Assembly: GCA_037308085.1 (NCBI GenBank)
Contig: CP147779.1
Coordinates: 448,001 to 512,000 of the forward strand
Source: Promethearchaeati archaeon SRVP18_Atabeyarchaeia-1
GTDB lineage: Archaea > Asgardarchaeota > Atabeyarchaeia > Atabeyarchaeales > Atabeyarchaeaceae
Direction of reading: 5' to 3'
Length of the DNA: 64,000 nucleotides
Both the position numbers and the translations under genes were made by a program. Positions 198 to 7,358 of the stretch are shown here, piece after piece (position 1 is the first letter of the stretch; every line of letters begins with the position of its first letter). Below the pieces are notes generated by a model, which saw only the letters and a program-made list of their open reading frames with translations, searched no databases and was not told where the DNA came from.

Positions 198-400
198 TGT
201 GCGACGCTCCTAGCGTAAACTTGCACAGGTTTTTCGCAGCGAATCCCGAATAGCGTCGACCCCAACAGCGGTTAAAAACCTGTGGATGAAGGGTTGTTTT
301 TCCACTGCGAAAAATCAGTGGCAGGCAGAAATGAGGACCCGAAAAAACCGACAGCACGGCTGCCGGAAATTTGGGCCTGATGTGGGCTCGAAGAAAAACC

Positions 401-446
401 CTGGAACCATGACATAAGTTAATCCCCCGAACAACATATTTGCGGC
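401..446 (+). other. 5' strand of the 16S processing stem with BHB
   Basis: AAC-CATG-aca-TAAG (405-418) pairs with CTTA-CATG-att-GTT (3133-3146), and also with a second copy near 4111-4121. Confidence 0.8.
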
Positions 447-809
447 TAATATAAACTCCCATGAAACCGGTTGATCCTGCCGGACCCAACCGCTATCGGA
501 GTGGGACTAAGCCATGCTAGTCGAGCGCCTCGGACTATGGCGAGGCGCGGCGTACGGCTCAGTAACACGTGGTTAACCTAACCTCCGGACGGGGATACCT
601 CCGGGAAACTGGAGCTAATACCCGATAGGTGAATAGTTCTGGAATGGCTTTTCACCCAAACGGCTTTGACACCATGTTTGCCAACGTCGCCAGAGGATGG
701 GACCGCGGCCGATTAGGCTGTTGGTGGGGTAACGGCTCACCAAACCGACAATCGGTACGGGCCGTGAGAGCGGTAGCCCGGAGATGGGGACTGAGACAAG
801 GCCCCAGGT

Positions 810-846
<37 letters not shown>

Positions 847-985
847 TGGAAACAGCGACGGGGCTACTCCGAGTGCCGTCCGCTAAGGGCGGCTTTTCCA
901 CAGTATAAAAAGCTGTGGGAATAAGGGGAGGGCAAGGCTGGTGCCAGCCGCCGCGGTAAAACCAGCTCCTCGAGTGGTTGGGATG

Positions 986-1016
<31 letters not shown>

Positions 1017-1198
1017 TTGTAAGTCCTTGGCTAAATCCGTCAGCCTAACTGACGGCGTGCTGAGGATACTGCTTGGCTTGGGGGCGAGAGAGGCTGAGGG
1101 TACTACTGGGGTAGGGGTGAAATCCTATAATCCCAGTAGGACCACCTGTGGCGAAGGCGTTCAGCTGGAGCGCGCCCGACGGTGAGGGACGAAAGCTA

Positions 1199-1232
<34 letters not shown>

Positions 1233-1333
1233 TAGCTGTAAACTATGCGGGCTAGGTGTTGGAGCGGCCACGTGCTGCTCCAGTGCCGAAGGGAAGCCGT
1301 TAAGCCCGCCGCCTGGGGAGTACGGCCGCAAGG

Positions 1334-1375
<42 letters not shown>

Positions 1376-1481
1376 AAGCCTGCGGTTTAATTGGACTCAA
1401 CGCCGGGAAACTTACCGGGGGCGACAGCAGAATGAAGGCCAGGTTGACGACCTTGCTTGACAAGCTGAGAGGTGGTGCATG

Positions 1482-2392
1482 AGGCCTTCAGGTCGTCCTA
1501 AAACTCTTCGCGGCTTCCTCTAACCTCTCTACGATGTGACTCATAGTCGTCTCTGTAGGAAGGCTGTTGACAAGTGTTGGCGAGGGAGTTCAAATGAACT
1601 CGCTTGTGCCTTTCTTAGGAGGGGATCATGACGATCGTTGACGACAAGAGGAAGTATGTTCTGGTCAAAACGAAGAGTCTTATCCGTCGTCTGCGCCAAC
1701 AAGACTGTGGGGCTCTGCAAGGAGTATACAGGCACGTTGATGACTTGGTTGAGTGGAATACCTTTCGAGACTGGGCGTATAGAGGCTGCTTCCGGATGCC
1801 TCTCAACGTGTTCGCAAGGTTGAAGAAGACATATGAGATCAAGGACGTGCCGCGAGTGGTCACAGAGACTCAATGGTACGCAGAGACACGCAAGAGAGCA
1901 GCAAGAATAATGCACGAACGCCACCCCCATAAGGAGTGGCTATCGCGAGCAGCGAAGGCTGGCGGTGAAGCTGTAAAAGCCAAGTACGGGATCAGGTATC
2001 TGACAAAACTCTCTGGATCTGCCATACATTCATCAGCCAGATACCGATACAAGGATGGATATGGAATAGAATACCGTAGCCGCCTGGAACTGCGGGTTGC
2101 GGATTTGCTGCGCAAACATGGATACAAATTCGATTATGAACCGGAGATAGATGGATACATCCCTGACTTCCTAATCAACCACACAATAATCGAGGTTAGC
2201 GGATACTTTCGCGACCACGATTATCTTTCAAGACTCCAGATCAAACTTGCAGACCTAACCACTAAGGGTTGGGATATCATCGTTGTATGTGAACCGCGAA
2301 ACAAAGCTGCTCTCCAGCAGGCGCTCGTAGGAATACGAGTCAAGGCAATTATGACAACGGATGAGTTCGGACGATGGCTGTAGGTCTGCGAA
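1482..2392 (+). mobile_element. 16S BHB intron 1 (911 nt, about E. coli 1057) carrying an endonuclease ORF
   Basis: Central helix TGCA/TGCG, bulges TG^A and AA^G; splicing gives GTGCATG|GCCGTCGTCAG. Confidence 0.93.
1628..2383 (+). CDS. Intron-encoded PD-(D/E)xK endonuclease (T7 endonuclease I/DUF559-like)
   Basis: YRSRLE...YEP...YIPDF...IIEVSG motif; stop codon lies in the intron's BHB stem. Confidence 0.75.
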   Translation: MTIVDDKRKYVLVKTKSLIRRLRQQDCGALQGVYRHVDDLVEWNTFRDWAYRGCFRMPLNVFARLKKTYEIKDVPRVVTETQWYAETRKRAARIMHERHPHKEWLSRAAKAGGEAVKAKYGIRYLTKLSGSAIHSSARYRYKDGYGIEYRSRLELRVADLLRKHGYKFDYEPEIDGYIPDFLINHTIIEVSGYFRDHDYLSRLQIKLADLTTKGWDIIVVCEPRNKAALQQALVGIRVKAIMTTDEFGRWL

Positions 2393-2741
2393 GCCGTCGT
2401 CAGTTCGTGCCGTGAGGTGTCCTGTCAAGTCAGGCAACGAACGAGACCCCTGCTTACAGTTGCTACCAGGCTTAGAAATGGGTCTGAGCACACTGTAGGG
2501 ACTGCCGGCGATAAGCTGGAGGAAGGAGGGGGCCACGGCAGGTCAGTATGCCCCGAATCCCCCGGGCCACACGCGGGCTGCAATGGTTGGGACAATGGGT
2601 TCCGACCCCGAAAGGGGAAGGTAATCCCGAAACCCAATCTCAGTTGGGATCGAGGGCTGCAACTCGCCCTCGTGAACATGGAATCCCTAGTAATCGCGCG
2701 TCATCATCGCGCGGTGAATACTGTCCCTGCTCCTTGCACAC

Positions 2742-2774
2742 ATCGTGTCTAGGAAGCGCTTAGCGCGAGTGTAG
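2742..2774 (+). other. 16S BHB intron 2 (33 nt, about E. coli 1397)
   Basis: Helix GCAC/GTGT, bulges AC^A and AG^A; splicing gives TGCACAC|ACCGCCC. Confidence 0.92.
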
Positions 2775-2849
2775 ACCGCCCGTCGCTCCACCCGAGTCGG
2801 GTTAGGGTGAGACGTAGCCTTTTTGGCCACGTCGAACCCAGGCTCGGCA

Positions 2850-2880
<31 letters not shown>

Positions 2881-3047
2881 AGACTCCGTAGGGGATGCTT
2901 GTGATTGTGATGGGGTGGCATCCGCCTTTTGCTTTGTATGCAACGACTTTGTTGCGGCTTGAGGTGTTCTCGTAGGTTCCGTGTTGCGCGTCTGATGTGT
3001 TTGGGATGCGTTTCCGAGGTTTCGTTTGTCTCCTTGGAGTCCGGTAA
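2881..3047 (+). other. 16S BHB intron 3 (167 nt, helix 45, about E. coli 1513)
   Basis: Helix GCCG/CGGT, stem GACTCC/GGAGTC, bulges TA^A and AA^G; splicing gives GCCGTA|GGGGAACC. Confidence 0.92.
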
Positions 3048-3292
3048 GGGGAACCTGCGGCTGGATCACCTCCTATGAATCCCCACCCGTTAGGGTGGGG
3101 TTCTTCCGCCGCGATTGTTGCCGAGGGGTTGGCTTACATGATTGTTGTGGGGTTTCGAGCCCGCCTACCTGCTTCTCACTGCTCATTTTGTTTTCCTGGT
3201 TATCCGATTAGCCATGTTATTGTCTAGCATTTGCTTTCTCTTTTCTGGATGGCTTCGGATTCGGAAAGCTGGGCGTGTTACTGTAGTTGGTG

Positions 3293-4024
3293 ACCTTTAA
3301 TGTCATCATCCATGACTAGATGATTGTGAGCTACGAACTCCTTGAAGGGTGTGGGCTTTCTGGTTCAATTTGATAAGATTCTGTTGAGGACCGATCAGTC
3401 GGCGGAGGCAACTCCATCCATCTGCTATCTTGCAGGTACGTTCAGAGATGGTTGCATATCAACCCAGTGGCAGATCAAGATCAAGCAGAAATCGAGGCAG
3501 TATCTTCTCAATAAGATCATACCAATACTAAACCAAGAATCCAATCTCCATTTGACAGAGAGAGCCGTCTATTTGCAGGCTGACGCAAATAGGCGCTTTT
3601 ATGTCGCGTTCAAGAGAAAGAAGGCATGGGGGCAGCTCAGGAAAACTTTCAGCATCCCCCCAGACAGTGTAAGTTAGGGAACGCCGCCGTTCGTCAAAAA
3701 ACTAGACAAAGCCCTGTTGCGTTTCTATATACAGGGCTTCTTTGACGCTGAAGGTGGAGTGCCCCGTAACCCGATGAGCTCCAAATTGTACATCTCATTC
3801 ACCCAAAGAAACCGTGAATCCCTAGAGTTTCTAAGAAACAAGCTGTATTCCGAGTGGAATATTGTCTCGGGCAGGCTGAGGATTTCTGATAACAGGTCCC
3901 ACTGCTGGAGGTTCACGATTGCTGGGCTAGGCTCGATCAAACGATTCATGACAGAGATTGGAACGGAACATCCATCTAAGGAGAGAAGATTCACTATCAT
4001 TTCGAATCTGCTTAAAGGCTGGTA
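3293..4024 (+). mobile_element. LAGLIDADG-bearing BHB-type intron in a duplicated 16S helix 45 copy
   Basis: CCTTTAA(3294-3300)/TTAAAGG(4012-4018) stem, TTGG/CTGG central helix, bulges TG^A and TA^G; followed by a copy of the 16S last exon. Confidence 0.6.
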
Positions 4025-4025
4025 G
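3342..4025 (+). pseudogene. Double-motif LAGLIDADG homing endonuclease with one in-frame TAG (3675-3677)
   Basis: Motifs YLAGTFRDG and YIQGFFDAEG are in the same frame; the two ORF-track pieces are separated by a single TAG. Confidence 0.8.
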
Positions 4026-4142
4026 GGGAACCTGCGACTGGATCACCTCCTACGAAGTCCCGCCCAAATGGGCGGGCTTCCTTTCTGCCGCATGTGTTGT
4101 TTGGGATCAGCTTACATGATAGCCAACGGGTTTTGGAGCCTA
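4025..4142 (+). repeat. Diverged duplicate of the 16S 3' exon and trailer (copy of about 3048-3162)
   Basis: GGGGAACCTGCGACTGGATCACCTCCT, GC hairpin, CTTACATGAT processing site, GGGTTT..GAGCC. Confidence 0.9.
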
Positions 4143-4300
4143 CCGAATCTCGTCTTCTCTGATATTTCGTATTGTGTCCTCTGCTATTCCTGTAGGCGGA
4201 TTGTTGCACTCCGATGTGGCTTGGACAAGATCGAGCTAAGCTGGAAAGCAGCCAGTGAAGATGGTCTGGACTCTGCCGTATTTGCCGCGCGCGAGATCCT

Positions 4301-4969
4301 CTATTCGAAGTACACGAGAGCGAAAGCTGTTGCCATGACTGCCATTCCTACGATTAGCTGTCTGAGAGTGATGCGGGAGGCCAGTGCAACGAAGAGAACG
4401 CCAAAACCTATCATGCTGACGACTACTACAAAGTAAAACGGCCTGAGAATGTCGGGTTTTCCAATTCCATAACCAAATAGCGTCCCAGTTATGGAGTGTA
4501 TAATCAACCATAGCACACCGAGGAATATGAGGATCAGTCCGAGTCCCGCGGCGATCCCCCTTGCGCTCCCTCTTCGGCCCCATCCCCACTCGTTCCGCTT
4601 TCTTTCGTCGGGCTCAAGAAAATCTAGTCTCAACCGCGCATTCCCACCTCTGATCACTGTCAACACGAAATCATCCCTAATGATGATCTTGATGGGCGCC
4701 ATATATATGTAGAGCGGCATCTGGTCGGGTGGATCATCATAGTCCCTAGATAATTGAGAGAGAGAGAGAGAGCCATCAAGAAGGTCATTATGTTGTATGG
4801 AATGTGTCCGGGAAGAATCAGGGACAAACCTGCGGTGAAGGAACTCATAGAGCGAATTATGGTGGAGGCGGGCGATACAATAGACTGGCTCGATGAGCTC
4901 TGGGGAAAAAAGGCACCTAGATAGGCGCTGGTAGCGCTGGACATCCATGAATGCGTCCATGTCCGTCAC
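4301..4969 (-). CDS. Hypothetical membrane protein; true start probably downstream of the ORF-track start
   Basis: Three hydrophobic segments in the C-terminal ~95 aa. Confidence 0.45.
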   Translation of the reverse strand: MTDMDAFMDVQRYQRLSRCLFSPELIEPVYCIARLHHNSLYEFLHRRFVPDSSRTHSIQHNDLLDGSLSLSQLSRDYDDPPDQMPLYIYMAPIKIIIRDDFVLTVIRGGNARLRLDFLEPDERKRNEWGWGRRGSARGIAAGLGLILIFLGVLWLIIHSITGTLFGYGIGKPDILRPFYFVVVVSMIGFGVLFVALASRITLRQLIVGMAVMATAFALVYFE

Positions 4970-5400
4970 CCTTATTACAGCTTCAACTCATACCTGTACT
5001 AGGGGTGAGAGTGAGACACGGCGAAATGCCCGAGATGTGGAGAATGGATGAGAACTGAGACTCGAACTGAACCGCTTCTCGGATTGAGTAAGAAGCGTCC
5101 AGCGTTCCCTAGGACAAAAAGACGTGACGTGTGTCCGCATTGCCACTACAGCACCATGTGGATCTAGTCGTAATAGGTTGCGCCTCTCCGCGAGAATGCC
5201 CTAGGAGGGTGCGCCCTGTTTCCTGTTGTTGTCCTGGTCGTTTTTCGTTGGGGTGGCTTGCTTTCTGTTTGGGGCCTTTTCCTGTGTGTGGGGGTTGGTT
5301 CTTTTCGGTGGGGGCTTCTAGCCGAACATTATTTAAGCTTGTGGAAGCGAATGCTTTGTTTGGAATACTTGTCTTGGCGCAGATGGGAGGGTGTTTAGCT

Positions 5401-6036
5401 TTGGCTGCTGGTGGTCTGCATGAGGCTTTAAATAGGTGCCCCAGGTGTGGTGCTGGGATGGAGTATCTTGGGAGGTCGGTGGCGTATTTGGAGTCTGGAG
5501 GCATCTCCGCCTTGTTCGAGGTTTATGTGTGCAGCAGCTGTCTTACGGTGCAGTTGGTTTCTTTCGGTAACGAGAGGGCCTATCGAGATCTTGTCAGGAA
5601 AAATGTTGGGCCATCATCGTTTCTCAAGCCGTGCGTCAGCTGTGGGAGCAGGATTCCCATAGCGTCGGAGGAGTGCCAGTTCTGCGGATCAAAGCAGCCG
5701 CCTTGGGATGAGGCTAAGAGGGGGAGGACGCAGGCTGAGCAAGCCTTGATGCAGAAGCTGGCTGAAATTATGAGAAGGAAGGCTGACGCGCGACTGCAGG
5801 GTGCGGCGCTCTCTAGTGGAGGAGGTGAGTCTGCGCCCGAGTTGGAGGCGGCGCCTCAGATTGAGGTGAAAGAGAAGCCAGGAGAATGCATGGTCTGCCA
5901 TAGCCCAGTGCTGAAGAAGGATGATGTGATTACTTGCCCTCACTGTGGAGGCGTTGCCCACAGGGTTCATATGCTTGAGTGGCTGCATGTCAAAGGCACC
6001 TGCCCCGCGTGCCATCAGCCGATAGCCCATCCTTAG
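5401..6036 (+). CDS. Zinc-ribbon plus C-terminal RING-like finger protein
   Basis: Four CxxC pairs, then CMVC...CPHC...HRVH..EWL...TCPAC; GGAGGGTG SD before TTG 5401. Confidence 0.75.
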   Translation: MAAGGLHEALNRCPRCGAGMEYLGRSVAYLESGGISALFEVYVCSSCLTVQLVSFGNERAYRDLVRKNVGPSSFLKPCVSCGSRIPIASEECQFCGSKQPPWDEAKRGRTQAEQALMQKLAEIMRRKADARLQGAALSSGGGESAPELEAAPQIEVKEKPGECMVCHSPVLKKDDVITCPHCGGVAHRVHMLEWLHVKGTCPACHQPIAHP

Positions 6037-6183
6037 CTTGGGCTGCTCCACCCACAGTTGGCGGCGATGGCTGCCCTACCCATTAGTCCTTTGCCCTCTA
6101 TCTGCCAGCGACTTATAGAAACCTATAATTCTATCTGAAGTGACAACTTACCAGCAGAGAGTTCGCTGGAGAATGAATGTTAG

Positions 6184-6420
6184 ATGCCGAAGCCTAAGGT
6201 GTCAATAAAGTTTTGTGGTGTCTGAGGTTCGAGCGCTGTGACAAGGAAGCTTGTGTCGTCTGTGGTACCGGGTCTTAAGAGCAAGGCGGACGTGGAATTG
6301 GTCAGGAAGGATGGTGCGCATCCTGAGATTCTCGTTAACGGCAAGAAGCTGAAGGCTGACTACGGCGACTTTGAGTCTTTGAAGAAGTCTGTGATAGATG
6401 CTGTGGACAAGGCGAAGTAG
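6184..6420 (+). CDS. SelW/Rdx-like selenoprotein (CxxU)
   Basis: MPKPKVSIKFCGVU(TGA 6223-6225)GSSAV continues in frame into ORF 6238-6420; SECIS-like hairpin follows. Confidence 0.85.
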
Positions 6421-6434
6421 CTCGAACGCTGCGA

Positions 6435-6482
6435 CCCTGATGATTCCCGCTCGTAAAAGCTGCGAGGGGGCGGGATGAAGGG
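6435..6482 (+). promoter_or_regulatory. Eukaryote-type SECIS element in the 3' UTR
   Basis: CCCT/AGGG helix I, ATGA...TGA core, TCCCGCTC/GGGCGGGA helix II, apical AAAA. Confidence 0.75.
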
Positions 6483-7358
6483 AGGGACGCCCCCGCGAGG
6501 TTTCTCGCGGTCGTCATCAACCTAGTTTCATGTTGAGTAGGCACTTCTGTGTTTGGAGGCGCCGTGGCGCCGGTGTATTGTCTCTTTCTCTTGCTGACCG
6601 CAATACTTATAATGGGTTCACCGCACTATCTTTGAATTGCGGTAGAGAGATGGCTTTGCAGCTGTTACTCTATCGCCCTCATGATGAACTTGAGATGCAA
6701 CTCGGGAGGATTGTACAATTGGGCCTCTCGGGTGAAGGGCAAAGTGGGGATTCACATGGTTACCATCCTCACGATAATTGCCGTGCATAGGCTCCATCTG
6801 CTAGATCGTTCGTACGAGGAGAACCCAGGTATATCCAACACCAAACTGGACCAAGGTTATGAGTAAGGTCTGACATGCCTACGCCGCCTGGAGGATGGCT
6901 AGGCTTGGGCGCCGAGGAAGGCCGTGGCAAGCTGCGATAAGCCTCGGGTAGGCGCACGCTGCCTGCGATCCGAGGATTGCCGAATAGGACTTCCTGACTA
7001 AGGTCAATAACCTTAGTCGCTCCCGTCAGGGAGTGGGAACTCTCCGAAGGGAAGCATCTCAGTAGGAGAAGGAAAAGAAACTAACAAGGACTCCCTTATT
7101 AGCGGCGAGCGAAAGGGGAAAAGGGCAAACCGAATCCTGCAGGGAAACCTGCTGGAGATGTGGGGTTACAGGACCTAGCTTCCACCTCTTCGAGGAAGTT
7201 GAAAGACATGGAAATGTCTGCCTTAGAGGGTGATAGCCCCGTAAGCGCAACTCGAAAAGTGCAGGGCTGGGGATCCTGAGTACCGTGGACTGCTTACTCC
7301 GCGGGAATTTGGGAGCTACCGACTTCCAACCCTAAGTACGTCCCAAGTCCGATAGCGC

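What the first reader, a model, noticed from the sequence alone, without database searches (positions are those of the whole stretch)
3283..4142. Homing-endonuclease intron parked in a duplicate copy of the 16S 3' end
Seen: after the real 16S end comes a LAGLIDADG ORF, then a second 16S last exon, hairpin and processing-BHB strand. The ORF is bracketed by its own BHB-like ends and would cut before the same GGGGAACC as 16S intron 3. Splicing would rebuild a helix 45 mimic (AGTTGGTG|GGGGAACCTGCGACT), in which the G-to-A change in the exon copy is matched by T in the pseudo-5' exon. Both trailers can pair with the single 5' leader. Inference: the nuclease sits in a decoy site next to the ORF-less intron it could mobilise (collaborative homing), or this is a displaced older allele. 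The central helix is rich in G-U pairs, so splicing is uncertain.
Basis: partly seen in the sequence, partly recalled or inferred. Interest (0 to 1): 0.85.

Follow-up and report, generated by a model that had tools for sequence, protein, structure and literature searches.

The report
Escaped homing-endonuclease gene behind 16S rRNA
A selfish DNA-cutting enzyme gene that normally sits inside an intron near the end of the archaeal 16S rRNA gene lies here just behind the gene, followed by a second copy of the gene's tail. The layout is real and shared by close relatives, but in this genome the enzyme gene is recently dead.

Summary
After the 16S 3' end (3048-3074), hairpin and processing strand comes a two-motif LAGLIDADG ORF (3402-4025). 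It is followed by a second 16S 3' end (4025-4051), hairpin and processing strand (4088-4143).

It is not a chimeric assembly. Independent contigs from the source run and from another study span the junctions.

Four metagenomic relatives (16S 3' domain about 99% identical where it could be compared) share the layout, with intact 207-222 aa genes. dN/dS is 0.09-0.17 and the catalytic Asp and Glu are invariant. More distant homologues sit inside canonical introns at the same helix-45 site, or also just downstream of 16S.

In this genome the gene is a pseudogene. The ATG is lost, there is an in-frame TAG, a 47-nt repeat is inserted upstream, and a strain variant carries further frameshifts.

The "intron in a decoy site" reading is only partly supported. 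No copy of the 5' exon exists, and the BHB-like ends are good here only (weak in one relative, absent in the others).

The best reading is an endonuclease gene displaced from the intron into the 3' flank by duplication of the gene's 3' end. It stands alone beside an ORF-less intron that occupies its presumed target. Collaborative homing is plausible but untested.

I class this as a new variant of a known kind.

The parts
384..446 (+). 16S 5' leader strand of the processing stem. Its BHB half is central CAUG 408-411 and bulge ACA 412-414.
   Evidence: Cofolds with trailer 1 as a canonical helix-bulge-helix-bulge-helix, and also with trailer 2. Sequence read.
464..3074 (+). 16S rRNA gene with three introns. 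The functional 3' end is copy 1.
   Evidence: Rfam SSU_rRNA_archaea, 1293 bits. The intronless G002 16S aligns across all three insertions.
2881..3047 (+). ORF-less 167-nt BHB intron in helix 45 (E. coli 1513/1514). The motif is GCCG/UAA/GACUCC ... GGAGUC/CGGU/AAG.
   Evidence: Removing it restores GTAGCCGTA|GGGGAACC, as in the intronless relative G002. It is 82% identical in L028. Its 5' end resembles that of the ORF-containing intron in L073.
3048..3074 (+). 16S 3'-terminal exon, copy 1
3081..3100 (+). Hairpin 1 (CCCCACCC GUUA GGGUGGGG)
   Evidence: Compensatory differences from hairpin 2 and from the relatives' hairpins.
3108..3166 (+). Trailer 1, the 3' strand of the 16S processing stem. 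Central CAUG 3137-3140, bulge AUU 3141-3143.
   Evidence: canonical BHB with the leader. Conserved among relatives, z 10-27.
3185..3196 (+). T-tract ATTTTGTTTTCC, a possible terminator of the 16S transcript (inference)
   Evidence: Read. Similar T-rich stretches occur in L028, L029 and L031. Not tested.
3287..3302 (+). Conserved block TTGGTGACCTTTAATG. It is a TATA-like element about 65 nt before the relatives' ATG, and in this genome also the 5' BHB-like strand.
   Evidence: It is the only block conserved in five otherwise unalignable spacers. It resembles the CTTATAAT boxes upstream of 16S (189-196) and 23S (6606-6613).
3326..3372 (+). 47-nt dispersed repeat inserted in the 5' untranslated region
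   Evidence: Absent from L028-L031 at this point. At least 9 other copies in the genome.
3402..4025 (+). LAGLIDADG homing-endonuclease pseudogene. GCG at 3402-3404 replaces the ATG, TAG at 3675-3677 replaces TGG, and the stop is at 4023-4025.
   Evidence: Pfam. Alignment with intact relatives. dN/dS. A strain variant has 1-nt deletions at 3594 and 3878.
4012..4025 (+). 3' BHB-like strand UUAAAGG/CUGG/UAG, overlapping the last codons of the ORF
4025..4051 (+). 16S 3'-terminal exon, copy 2 (G-to-A at 4037)
4059..4076 (+). Hairpin 2 (CCCGCCC AAAU GGGCGGG)
4088..4143 (+). Trailer 2, a second copy of the processing-stem 3' strand. Central CAUG 4115-4118, bulge AUA 4119-4121, then GCC instead of GUU.
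   Evidence: Pairs with the leader. Conserved among relatives, z 7.7-23.5, while the flanks are not. The derived GCC/GCU is shared by all copy-2 trailers.

Best explanation
This is a decayed copy of a rearranged mobile element that is conserved in a small clade.

Origin (inferred). The ancestor was a bulge-helix-bulge intron at 16S helix 45 that carried a two-motif (I-DmoI-type) LAGLIDADG homing-endonuclease gene. That arrangement is still seen in other archaea. In this clade the 3' end of the gene region was duplicated: the last 21-27 nt of 16S, the hairpin, the processing-stem strand and the T-rich tail. The endonuclease gene now lies about 330 nt behind the functional 16S 3' end, between the two copies. 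The intron left at the target site has no ORF.

State in the relatives. Shown: the gene is intact, keeps its catalytic Asp and Glu, and has been under purifying selection long enough for synonymous sites to saturate. Inferred: it is expressed from its own TATA-like element and Shine-Dalgarno-like GAGG.

Likely mechanism (inferred, about 45%). The enzyme cuts intronless 16S alleles such as that of the same-family genome G002. The ORF-less intron protects the carrier. Repair copies the intron, and, when the break's right end pairs with copy 2 and trailer 2 rather than copy 1, the whole cassette. This is collaborative homing with a built-in downstream homology arm.

State in this genome. Shown: the gene has recently died. 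The start codon is lost, TGG has become TAG, a 47-nt repeat is inserted upstream, and a co-occurring strain has extra frameshifts.
For: 1. The layout is real. Contigs from two studies bridge 2851-4500 and 3050-4083 with no differences. The genome is a single 2.8-Mb contig.

2. The same order occurs in L028, L029, L030 and L031: 16S with an ORF-less intron, 3' end, trailer, spacer, conserved block, endonuclease gene, second 3' end and trailer. Their genes are intact, 207-222 aa, and 70-83% identical. L031's contig ends at the endonuclease stop codon, so its second copy is not seen. The shared 16S 3' domain is 99.6% identical to L028 and L029, against 95.2% to G002, which has no intron and no cassette.

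3. dN/dS is 0.09-0.17, with dS from 0.6 to above 2. D16 and E117 are invariant. The AlphaFold model has pLDDT 94, and its best PDB matches are PI-PfuI, I-Tsp061I and I-DmoI.

4. Homologues lie in canonical introns at exactly this site in L032, L075 and L073. They also lie just downstream of 16S in distant archaea: L071/L072, with a 43-nt ORF-less intron at the site, and L070.

5. Trailer 2 is conserved about as well as trailer 1 (z 7.7-23.5 against 10-27). The spacer and the downstream DNA are not. Copy-2 trailers share a derived GCC/GCU and follow a leader change (A-U to G-C).

6. Pseudogene lesions are shown.

7. The known analogue is the fungal mitochondrial endonuclease ORF flanked by an inserted and a native gene 3' end (PMC3630166). 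Collaborative homing is defined in PMC3984707.
Against: - No activity, transcript or target has been shown for any member.
- The target is inferred only from the canonical homologues' insertion site.
- The promoter reading rests on one conserved AT-rich block, and a simple motif check was uninformative.
- The fungal model predicts that the downstream copy is the native one. Here diagnostic positions are mixed: trailer 1 shares GUU with the naive G002, while trailer 2 shares CCGCAUGU and AGCUU.CAUGAUAG.
- Gene conversion between the copies could mimic conservation of trailer 2. L029's copies are identical for about 80 nt, and L028's are 89% identical.
- L070 and L071 have no recognisable second copy, so the duplicate is not required for the downstream position.
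- Long purifying selection on a selfish nuclease could also mean a host function.
Confidence: 0.6

Rival explanations
1. First reader's reading. The ORF with its flanks is still a working BHB intron, sitting in a mimic of helix 45 within the 16S 3' trailer. The splicing endonuclease excises and circularises it, which is how the nuclease mRNA is made.
For: In this genome the ends form a 4-bp central helix, two 3-nt bulges and a 7-bp inner helix, with cuts at 3292|4025. With the 3' site fixed, only 11 of 2000 shuffles do as well. In L028 the same 5' site is the best partner (7.5/11). The inner helix resembles that of the canonical intron in L032. The joined flanks can form a hairpin in W and in L028 (read by eye).
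Against: The motif is best in the one genome whose gene is dead. It is not significant in L028 (228/2000) and is absent in L029 and L031, whose genes are intact. A free search of both ends is matched by 94 of 200 shuffles. Three of the four central pairs are G-U. The 5' flank is not a copy of 16S exon 1. Copy 2 lacks GGGGA in L028 and L029. A T-tract after trailer 1 may stop 16S transcription before the ORF.
Confidence: 0.12
2. Neutral relic. A tandem duplication (or unequal crossover between ORF-containing and ORF-less alleles) stranded the gene downstream. Copy 2 has no role and stays recognisable only through gene conversion from copy 1. The nuclease persisted for a host function or by chance, not by homing.
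For: Gene conversion is evident in L029 and L028. The cassette looks vertically inherited within a clade with near-identical 16S. No close homologue was found in 400 genomes of the phylum. The gene is decaying here, as expected at the end of a homing cycle.
Against: dN/dS of about 0.1 across saturated dS needs sustained selection on the protein. Copy-2 trailers keep their own shared derived bases, so they are not simply overwritten. L030 keeps trailer 2 although its 16S part is gone. The patchy presence, with G002 naive, fits mobility.
Confidence: 0.25
3. Assembly artefact. Two strain alleles of the 16S 3' region, one with an ORF-containing intron and one with an ORF-less intron, were joined head to tail.
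For: The region holds a repeat of about 120 nt and comes from a metagenome. Strain variants exist.
Against: Logan contigs from the source run (2851-4500) and from an independent study (3050-4083, 3085-4231) bridge both junctions. Four other assemblies show the same order. The sequence upstream of the ORF is not 16S exon 1, which a chimera would require.
Confidence: 0.02

Closest known systems
Archaeal rRNA-intron LAGLIDADG homing endonucleases (I-DmoI, I-Tsp061I, I-ApeI type)
   Same: It is a single chain of about 200 aa with two LAGLIDADG motifs carrying Asp and Glu. The predicted fold matches I-Tsp061I and I-DmoI. The family is tied to an rRNA BHB-intron site, and some homologues are canonical intron ORFs (L032, L075, L073).
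   Different: Here and in four relatives the gene is outside the intron, behind the 16S 3' end. The helix-45 site (1513/1514) is not among the 16S intron loci listed for Thermoproteales (PMC4496867). No close sequence relative has a solved structure. This genome's copy is broken.
Collaborative homing: a free-standing endonuclease plus an ORF-less intron at the same target (phage examples reviewed in PMC3984707)
   Same: An ORF-less intron occupies the presumed target, and a separate endonuclease gene lies within a few hundred bases, close enough to be co-converted. The pair is inherited together in five assemblies, and in the distant L071/L072.
   Different: The known cases are phage group I introns with HNH-type or other nucleases. 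Here the intron is an archaeal BHB intron in a cellular rRNA gene, and the likely direction is escape from the intron rather than pre-adaptation. Cleavage specificity is untested.
Fungal mitochondrial mobile ORF 'gene hybrids' (Allomyces atp6; Glomus atp6, atp9, cox2, nad3; PMC3630166)
   Same: The order is the same: gene core, one copy of the gene's 3' end, endonuclease ORF, second copy of the 3' end. The upstream copy is the one in use.
   Different: Those duplicate a protein C-terminus, and the downstream copy is clearly the native one. Here the duplicate is an rRNA terminus plus its processing strand, which copy is native could not be settled, and an intron also sits at the target.
Endonuclease gene downstream of the single 16S gene in Ca. 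Heimdallarchaeum (HeimM2, PMC8813620)
   Same: An rRNA-intron-type homing endonuclease homologue is placed directly after a 16S gene in an archaeon.
   Different: That gene was described as part of an 8-kb mobile element, co-opted for integration. No ORF-less intron or duplicated processing strand was reported in the passages read. Relatedness to this family was not tested.

Membership tests
LAGLIDADG homing endonuclease, two-motif monomer | Two LAGLIDADG motifs, each ending in an acidic residue followed by Gly | tested here: met
   YLAGTFRDG and FFDAEGG are present. D16 and E117 are invariant in the alignment. Pfam LAGLIDADG_3 E 6.8e-9.
LAGLIDADG homing endonuclease, two-motif monomer | Two alpha-beta-beta-alpha-beta-beta-alpha domains packed through the motif helices | tested here: met
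   Model of relative P0002 has pLDDT 94.4 and pTM 0.91. Foldseek top matches are PI-PfuI, I-Tsp061I and I-DmoI, probability 1.00.
LAGLIDADG homing endonuclease, two-motif monomer | Intact reading frame able to give the enzyme | tested here: not met
   In this window there is GCG in place of ATG, TAG at 3675-3677, and a repeat inserted upstream. The frame is intact in L028-L031.
LAGLIDADG homing endonuclease, two-motif monomer | Site-specific double-strand cleavage of the intronless allele | not testable with these tools
   Needs the enzyme and a substrate.
Archaeal BHB intron (claim for the 3293-4024 element) | Bulge-helix-bulge motif at the two boundaries | tested here: inconclusive
   W scores 9.5/11, matched by 11 of 2000 shuffles with a fixed 3' site. 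A free search is matched by 94 of 200 shuffles. Three of the four central pairs are G-U.
Archaeal BHB intron (claim for the 3293-4024 element) | Motif kept in relatives that keep the element | tested here: not met
   L028 228/2000. L029 and L031 have no motif at the homologous site.
Archaeal BHB intron (claim for the 3293-4024 element) | Interrupts a functional RNA, with exon sequence on both sides | tested here: not met
   The 5' flank has no 16S similarity beyond chance. Copy 2 is truncated in L028 and L029 and lost in L030.
Archaeal BHB intron (claim for the 3293-4024 element) | Spliced junction or circular intron RNA | not testable with these tools
   No RNA holder was listed.
Archaeal BHB intron (the ORF-less element 2881-3047) | BHB motif, and exact restoration of the conserved rRNA sequence on removal | tested here: met
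   The motif is GCCG/UAA/GACUCC ... GGAGUC/CGGU/AAG. Removal gives GTAGCCGTAGGGGAACC, as in the intronless G002.
Collaborative homing pair | ORF-less intron at the site, with a free-standing endonuclease gene close by | tested here: met
   The intron is at 2881-3047 and the gene at 3402-4025. The same holds in L028-L031 and in L071/L072.
Collaborative homing pair | The endonuclease's target equals the intron insertion site, and the intron protects it | not testable with these tools
   Inferred only from homologues that are intron ORFs at this site (L032, L075, L073).
Collaborative homing pair | Endonuclease kept functional by selection | tested here: met
   dN/dS 0.09-0.17 among five copies. 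It is no longer met in this genome.
Mobile endonuclease ORF with a duplicated gene 3' end (fungal mitochondrial type) | Two copies of the gene's 3' end flank the endonuclease ORF, and the upstream copy is in use | tested here: met
   Only copy 1 is joined to exon 1 by the intron, and only copy 1 keeps GGGGAACC in all relatives.
Mobile endonuclease ORF with a duplicated gene 3' end (fungal mitochondrial type) | The downstream copy is native (closest to uninvaded relatives) and the upstream copy is foreign | tested here: inconclusive
   Identity to the G002 trailer is 68% for copy 1 and 66% for copy 2. The diagnostic sites point both ways.

The most novel reading that the evidence does not exclude
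Trailer 2 is a working second partner of the single 16S leader. Read-through pre-rRNA would fold leader with trailer 2. The splicing endonuclease and ligase would then release a circular RNA carrying 16S plus the nuclease gene, or a processed spacer RNA that serves as the nuclease mRNA. A selfish gene would thereby use the rRNA-processing stem, not an intron, for its expression. The same duplicate would also serve as the DNA homology arm that lets the whole cassette home.
Probability: 0.15. Interest if true: 0.8.

Novelty: new variant of a known kind. Interest (0 to 1): 0.6.

Why it matters
Homing endonucleases of archaeal rRNA introns are known as ORFs inside the intron. Here comparative data show a lineage in which the gene left the intron yet stayed next to its presumed target, and stayed under purifying selection for a long time.

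If the relatives' enzyme cuts the intronless helix-45 site, three things would follow:
- It would be the first archaeal, BHB-intron case of collaborative homing that I found in the literature searched.
- It would be a natural example of a mobile cassette that carries its own downstream homology arm.
- It would be an rRNA counterpart of the fungal mitochondrial 'gene hybrids'.

There are practical consequences too. The duplicated 16S terminus, and an intron inside the last 30 nt of 16S, can mislead rRNA annotation, primer design at the 1492-1541 region, and assembly.

For this genome alone the element is a dead remnant.

Tried and rejected
- Chimeric assembly: rejected.
- Copy of 16S exon 1 upstream of the ORF: none beyond chance in W, L028 or L029.
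- A second leader-like strand in the spacer to pair with trailer 2: duplex energies are no better than shuffles (one search timed out).
- Free search for BHB motifs: not better than shuffles in any of the five loci.
- Genome-contig scan with the protein found nothing.
- A DNA-pattern scan of genome contigs gave one hit (L076). It is a chance match inside a bacterial protein gene with no rRNA nearby.
- The metagenome scan gave 27 loci (L033-L059) at 22-41% identity. None had the 16S motifs except L039, which is an AT-rich insertion at another 16S position.
- 400 genomes of the phylum hold only 28-35% identical homologues.
- Among 40 relatives none has the cassette at the DNA level. The same-genus draft G001 has no assembled rRNA match.
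- No RNA holder was listed for the stretch, so expression is untested.
- The Rfam E-value scan of 2700-4400 gave no credible family other than 16S.
- The PDB sequence search gave only weak hits.
- ARAGORN finds no tRNA at the dispersed-repeat loci, and the repeat's fold is not better than shuffles in W.
- A check for the TATA-like motif upstream of long ORFs was uninformative.
- Pyrrolysine or read-through of the TAG: rejected as the simplest reading. Relatives have TGG there, the ATG is also lost, and strain variants carry frameshifts.
- L070 and L071: no similarity between the 16S trailer and the DNA after the nuclease gene.
Full report
**What is in the sequence**

The window opens with a tRNA and a single archaeal 16S gene (464-3074). 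Rfam aligns the gene only when three insertions are skipped. The third insertion (2881-3047, 167 nt, no ORF) lies in helix 45. Its ends form GCCG/UAA/GACUCC ... GGAGUC/CGGU/AAG. Cutting after the second base of each bulge restores GTAGCCGTA|GGGGAACC. The same-family closed genome G002 has exactly that uninterrupted sequence.

After the 16S terminus (3048-3074) come three features:
- a hairpin (3081-3100);
- the 3' strand of the processing stem (3108-3166), which forms a canonical bulge-helix-bulge with the leader at 384-446, with central CAUG on both strands;
- a T-tract (3185-3196).

From 3402 to 4025 runs a LAGLIDADG reading frame. At 4025-4051 the 16S terminus appears again with one G-to-A change. 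It is followed by a second hairpin (4059-4076) and a second processing strand (4088-4143). The repeat finder gives 57 nt at 81% and 31 nt at 71%, at spacings of 977 and 978 nt.

**Is it an assembly artefact?**

No. The genome is one 2.8-Mb contig and this is the only such locus in it. Logan contigs assembled independently support the layout:
- From the probable source run, one contig covers 2851-4500 without a difference.
- From a different study (wetland samples), one contig covers 3050-4083 without a difference.
- A second wetland contig covers 3085-4231. It has three substitutions and single-base deletions at 3594 and 3878.

A chimera of two intron alleles would also need 16S exon 1 in front of the ORF, and it is not there.

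**The gene**

The frame 3342-4025 is continuous apart from TAG at 3675-3677. It carries two motifs, YLAGTFRDG and FFDAEGG.

A search of 5.8 billion proteins found five relatives, 54-83% identical and 203-222 aa. An exhaustive profile search added more distant ones. Aligned with them, this copy shows three lesions:
- It has GCG where the others have the ATG.
- It has TAG where they have TGG.
- It has a 47-nt insertion (3326-3372) in the 5' untranslated region. This insertion is a dispersed repeat with at least nine other copies in the genome.

Together with the extra frameshifts in the strain variant, this makes it a pseudogene.

The damage is recent. dN/dS between this copy and L028 is 0.14, the same as among intact copies (0.09-0.17), while dS ranges from 0.6 to saturation. 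D16 and E117 are invariant. The model of P0002 is confident (pLDDT 94). It matches PI-PfuI, the archaeal intron enzyme I-Tsp061I, and I-DmoI.

**Relatives**

The contigs that encode the four closest proteins (L028, L029, L030, L031) have the same order as the window:
- a 16S gene with an ORF-less intron at the same site (L031's contig begins only within the 16S 3' terminus, so its intron is not seen);
- the 16S terminus, hairpin and trailer;
- a poorly conserved spacer;
- a conserved block (A/T)TGG(T/G)GA(C/G)CTTAAATG;
- the nuclease gene;
- a second copy of the terminus and trailer.

The second copy starts at ACCTGCGG in L028 and at AACCTGCGG in L029, so GGGGA is missing. In L030 only the trailer part is recognisable. 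L031 ends before it.

In 229 shared 16S columns, W is 99.6% identical to L028 and to L029, and 95.2% to G002. G002 has none of the three introns and no cassette. The arrangement is therefore a feature of a narrow clade, and is old relative to synonymous change in the gene.

Further out, homologues occur in two settings:
- Inside canonical introns at precisely this site: L032 (54% identical; GTAACCGTA|AGGTCC ... GGAAA|GGGGAACC), L075 (40%) and L073 (61%, itself broken). The 5' end of L073's intron, AGATTCCAAGGAGG, resembles that of the ORF-less intron here.
- Just downstream of a 16S gene in distant archaea: L070 (59%) and L071/L072 (46%). In L071/L072 the 16S 3' domain is only 73% like W's and a 43-nt ORF-less intron sits at the site. 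No second copy of the terminus can be recognised in either.

The family is thus tied to the helix-45 site, and has more than once ended up free-standing behind the gene.

In this window the ends of the ORF element do form a BHB-like motif, UUGG/UGA/CCUUUAA with UUAAAGG/CUGG/UAG. It would cut at 3292|4025, directly before GGGGAACC.
- With the 3' site fixed, 11 of 2000 shuffles of the upstream region do as well.
- With both ends free, such motifs are common: 94 of 200 shuffles.
- At the homologous site L028 scores 7.5/11 with the same partner (228/2000).
- L029 and L031, whose genes are intact, have nothing there.

The inner helix resembles that of the canonical intron in L032. It is therefore most simply a remnant of the ancestral intron, retained in the W/L028 branch. 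It is not a conserved requirement.

The 'pseudo-5' exon' is not a copy of exon 1, so there is no complete decoy target.

**The second trailer**

Trailer 2 is not decaying like the DNA around it.
- Across all pairs of W, L028, L029 and L030 it aligns with z 7.7-23.5, close to trailer 1 (10-27). The spacer and the DNA after trailer 2 give z near 0-3, apart from the W-L028 spacer, which still aligns (z 21.5).
- It can pair with the single leader over about 50 bp.
- One pair changes from A-U in W to G-C in L028 for both trailers.
- All copy-2 trailers share GCC or GCU after the bulge, where copy 1 and G002 have GUU or GUC. This turns the trailer-side bulge into an internal loop, and shows that the second copies are a lineage of their own.
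- Gene conversion also occurs. The L029 copies are identical for about 80 nt, and the L028 copies are 89% identical.

I cannot tell whether the constraint acts on RNA (pairing with the leader) or on DNA (homology with naive alleles).

**Mechanism proposed**

Shown:
- the layout;
- its conservation;
- purifying selection on the relatives' gene;
- the pseudogene state here;
- an ORF-less intron at the site where homologues are intron ORFs.

Inferred:
- The ancestor was an ORF-containing intron. Duplication of the 3' end placed the ORF behind the functional terminus, as in the fungal mitochondrial gene hybrids (PMC3630166).
- The gene is transcribed from the conserved TATA-like block, which resembles the CTTATAAT boxes before 16S and 23S in this window.
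- The enzyme cuts intronless alleles such as G002's.
- Repair copies the intron alone if the break's right end pairs with copy 1. It copies the intron plus the nuclease gene if that end pairs with copy 2 and trailer 2.

This is collaborative homing in the sense of PMC3984707, with a built-in homology arm. I give the structural and evolutionary part about 0.85 and the homing mechanism about 0.45.

**Comparison with what is known**

- The enzyme is a member of the archaeal two-motif LAGLIDADG endonucleases.
- The ORF-less element is an ordinary BHB intron, at a 16S position not listed for Thermoproteales (PMC4496867).
- The displaced gene with a duplicated terminus has analogues in fungal mitochondria, and, for the intron-nuclease pairing, in phages. 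I found no description for archaeal rRNA introns in the library searched.
- A nuclease gene directly behind the 16S gene of Ca. Heimdallarchaeum was published as part of a mobile element (PMC8813620). I did not test whether it is related.

**Verdict**

The finding is real and more interesting in its relatives than in this genome. It is a new variant of known kinds of homing-endonuclease arrangements, present here as a recently dead copy.

Noticed in passing
window 3326-3372; also L002-L008 (other places in the same genome): A dispersed element of about 50 nt (GTGAGCTACCAAC..CCTTGAAGGG..GGCTTCCTGGTTCA) has at least 9 further copies in this genome and 2 in the same-family genome G002. There are two subfamilies, short (about 52 nt) and long (about 110 nt). 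It has no tRNA or Rfam assignment. Here it is a recent insertion in front of the nuclease gene.
   Followed up: partly
window 1482-2392 (ORF 1628-2383): The first 16S intron carries an intact 251-aa ORF that is not LAGLIDADG. Its only Pfam hit is a weak one, below the curated cut-off, to Phage_endo_I (E 0.0026).
   Followed up: no
window 3075-6866: 16S and 23S are about 3.8 kb apart, with protein-coding ORFs on both strands between them. Each rRNA gene is preceded by its own CTTATAAT box (189-196 and 6606-6613), so the two rRNAs are probably separate transcription units.
   Followed up: no
window 3594, 3878 and 3695 (variants in runs X3 and X4): Strain variants from wetland samples carry single-base deletions (3594, 3878) or an extra A (after 3695) inside the nuclease ORF. 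The pseudogene is accumulating frameshifts in nature. The insertion is a single contig at depth about 5.5 and may be an error.
   Followed up: partly
L071/L072 471-1403; L070 1-789: Distant archaea (16S 3' domain 73% like this one) have a homologous nuclease gene 160-260 nt behind the 16S 3' end. In L071/L072 a 43-nt ORF-less intron sits at the same helix-45 site, without a recognisable duplicate of the terminus.
   Followed up: partly
L028 2792-5717: The 16S gene of the closest relative has at least four insertions absent from this window's 16S (about 142, 33, 61 and 675 nt). It lacks this window's large first intron at the same size. Intron content therefore differs strongly between 16S genes that are 96-98% identical in their exons.
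   Followed up: no
L075 120-175: This canonical ORF-containing helix-45 intron is preceded, only 12 nt upstream, by a second mini-insertion of about 44 nt between AAGTCGTAAC and ACAAGGTAACC.
   Followed up: no
window 4115-4130 and the copy-2 trailers of L028, L029, L030: All second trailers have GCC or GCU directly after the bulge, where first trailers and the naive relative have GUU or GUC. With the leader, this leaves the trailer-side bulge unclosed. No partner sequence for GCC(A/G)A was found.
   Followed up: partly
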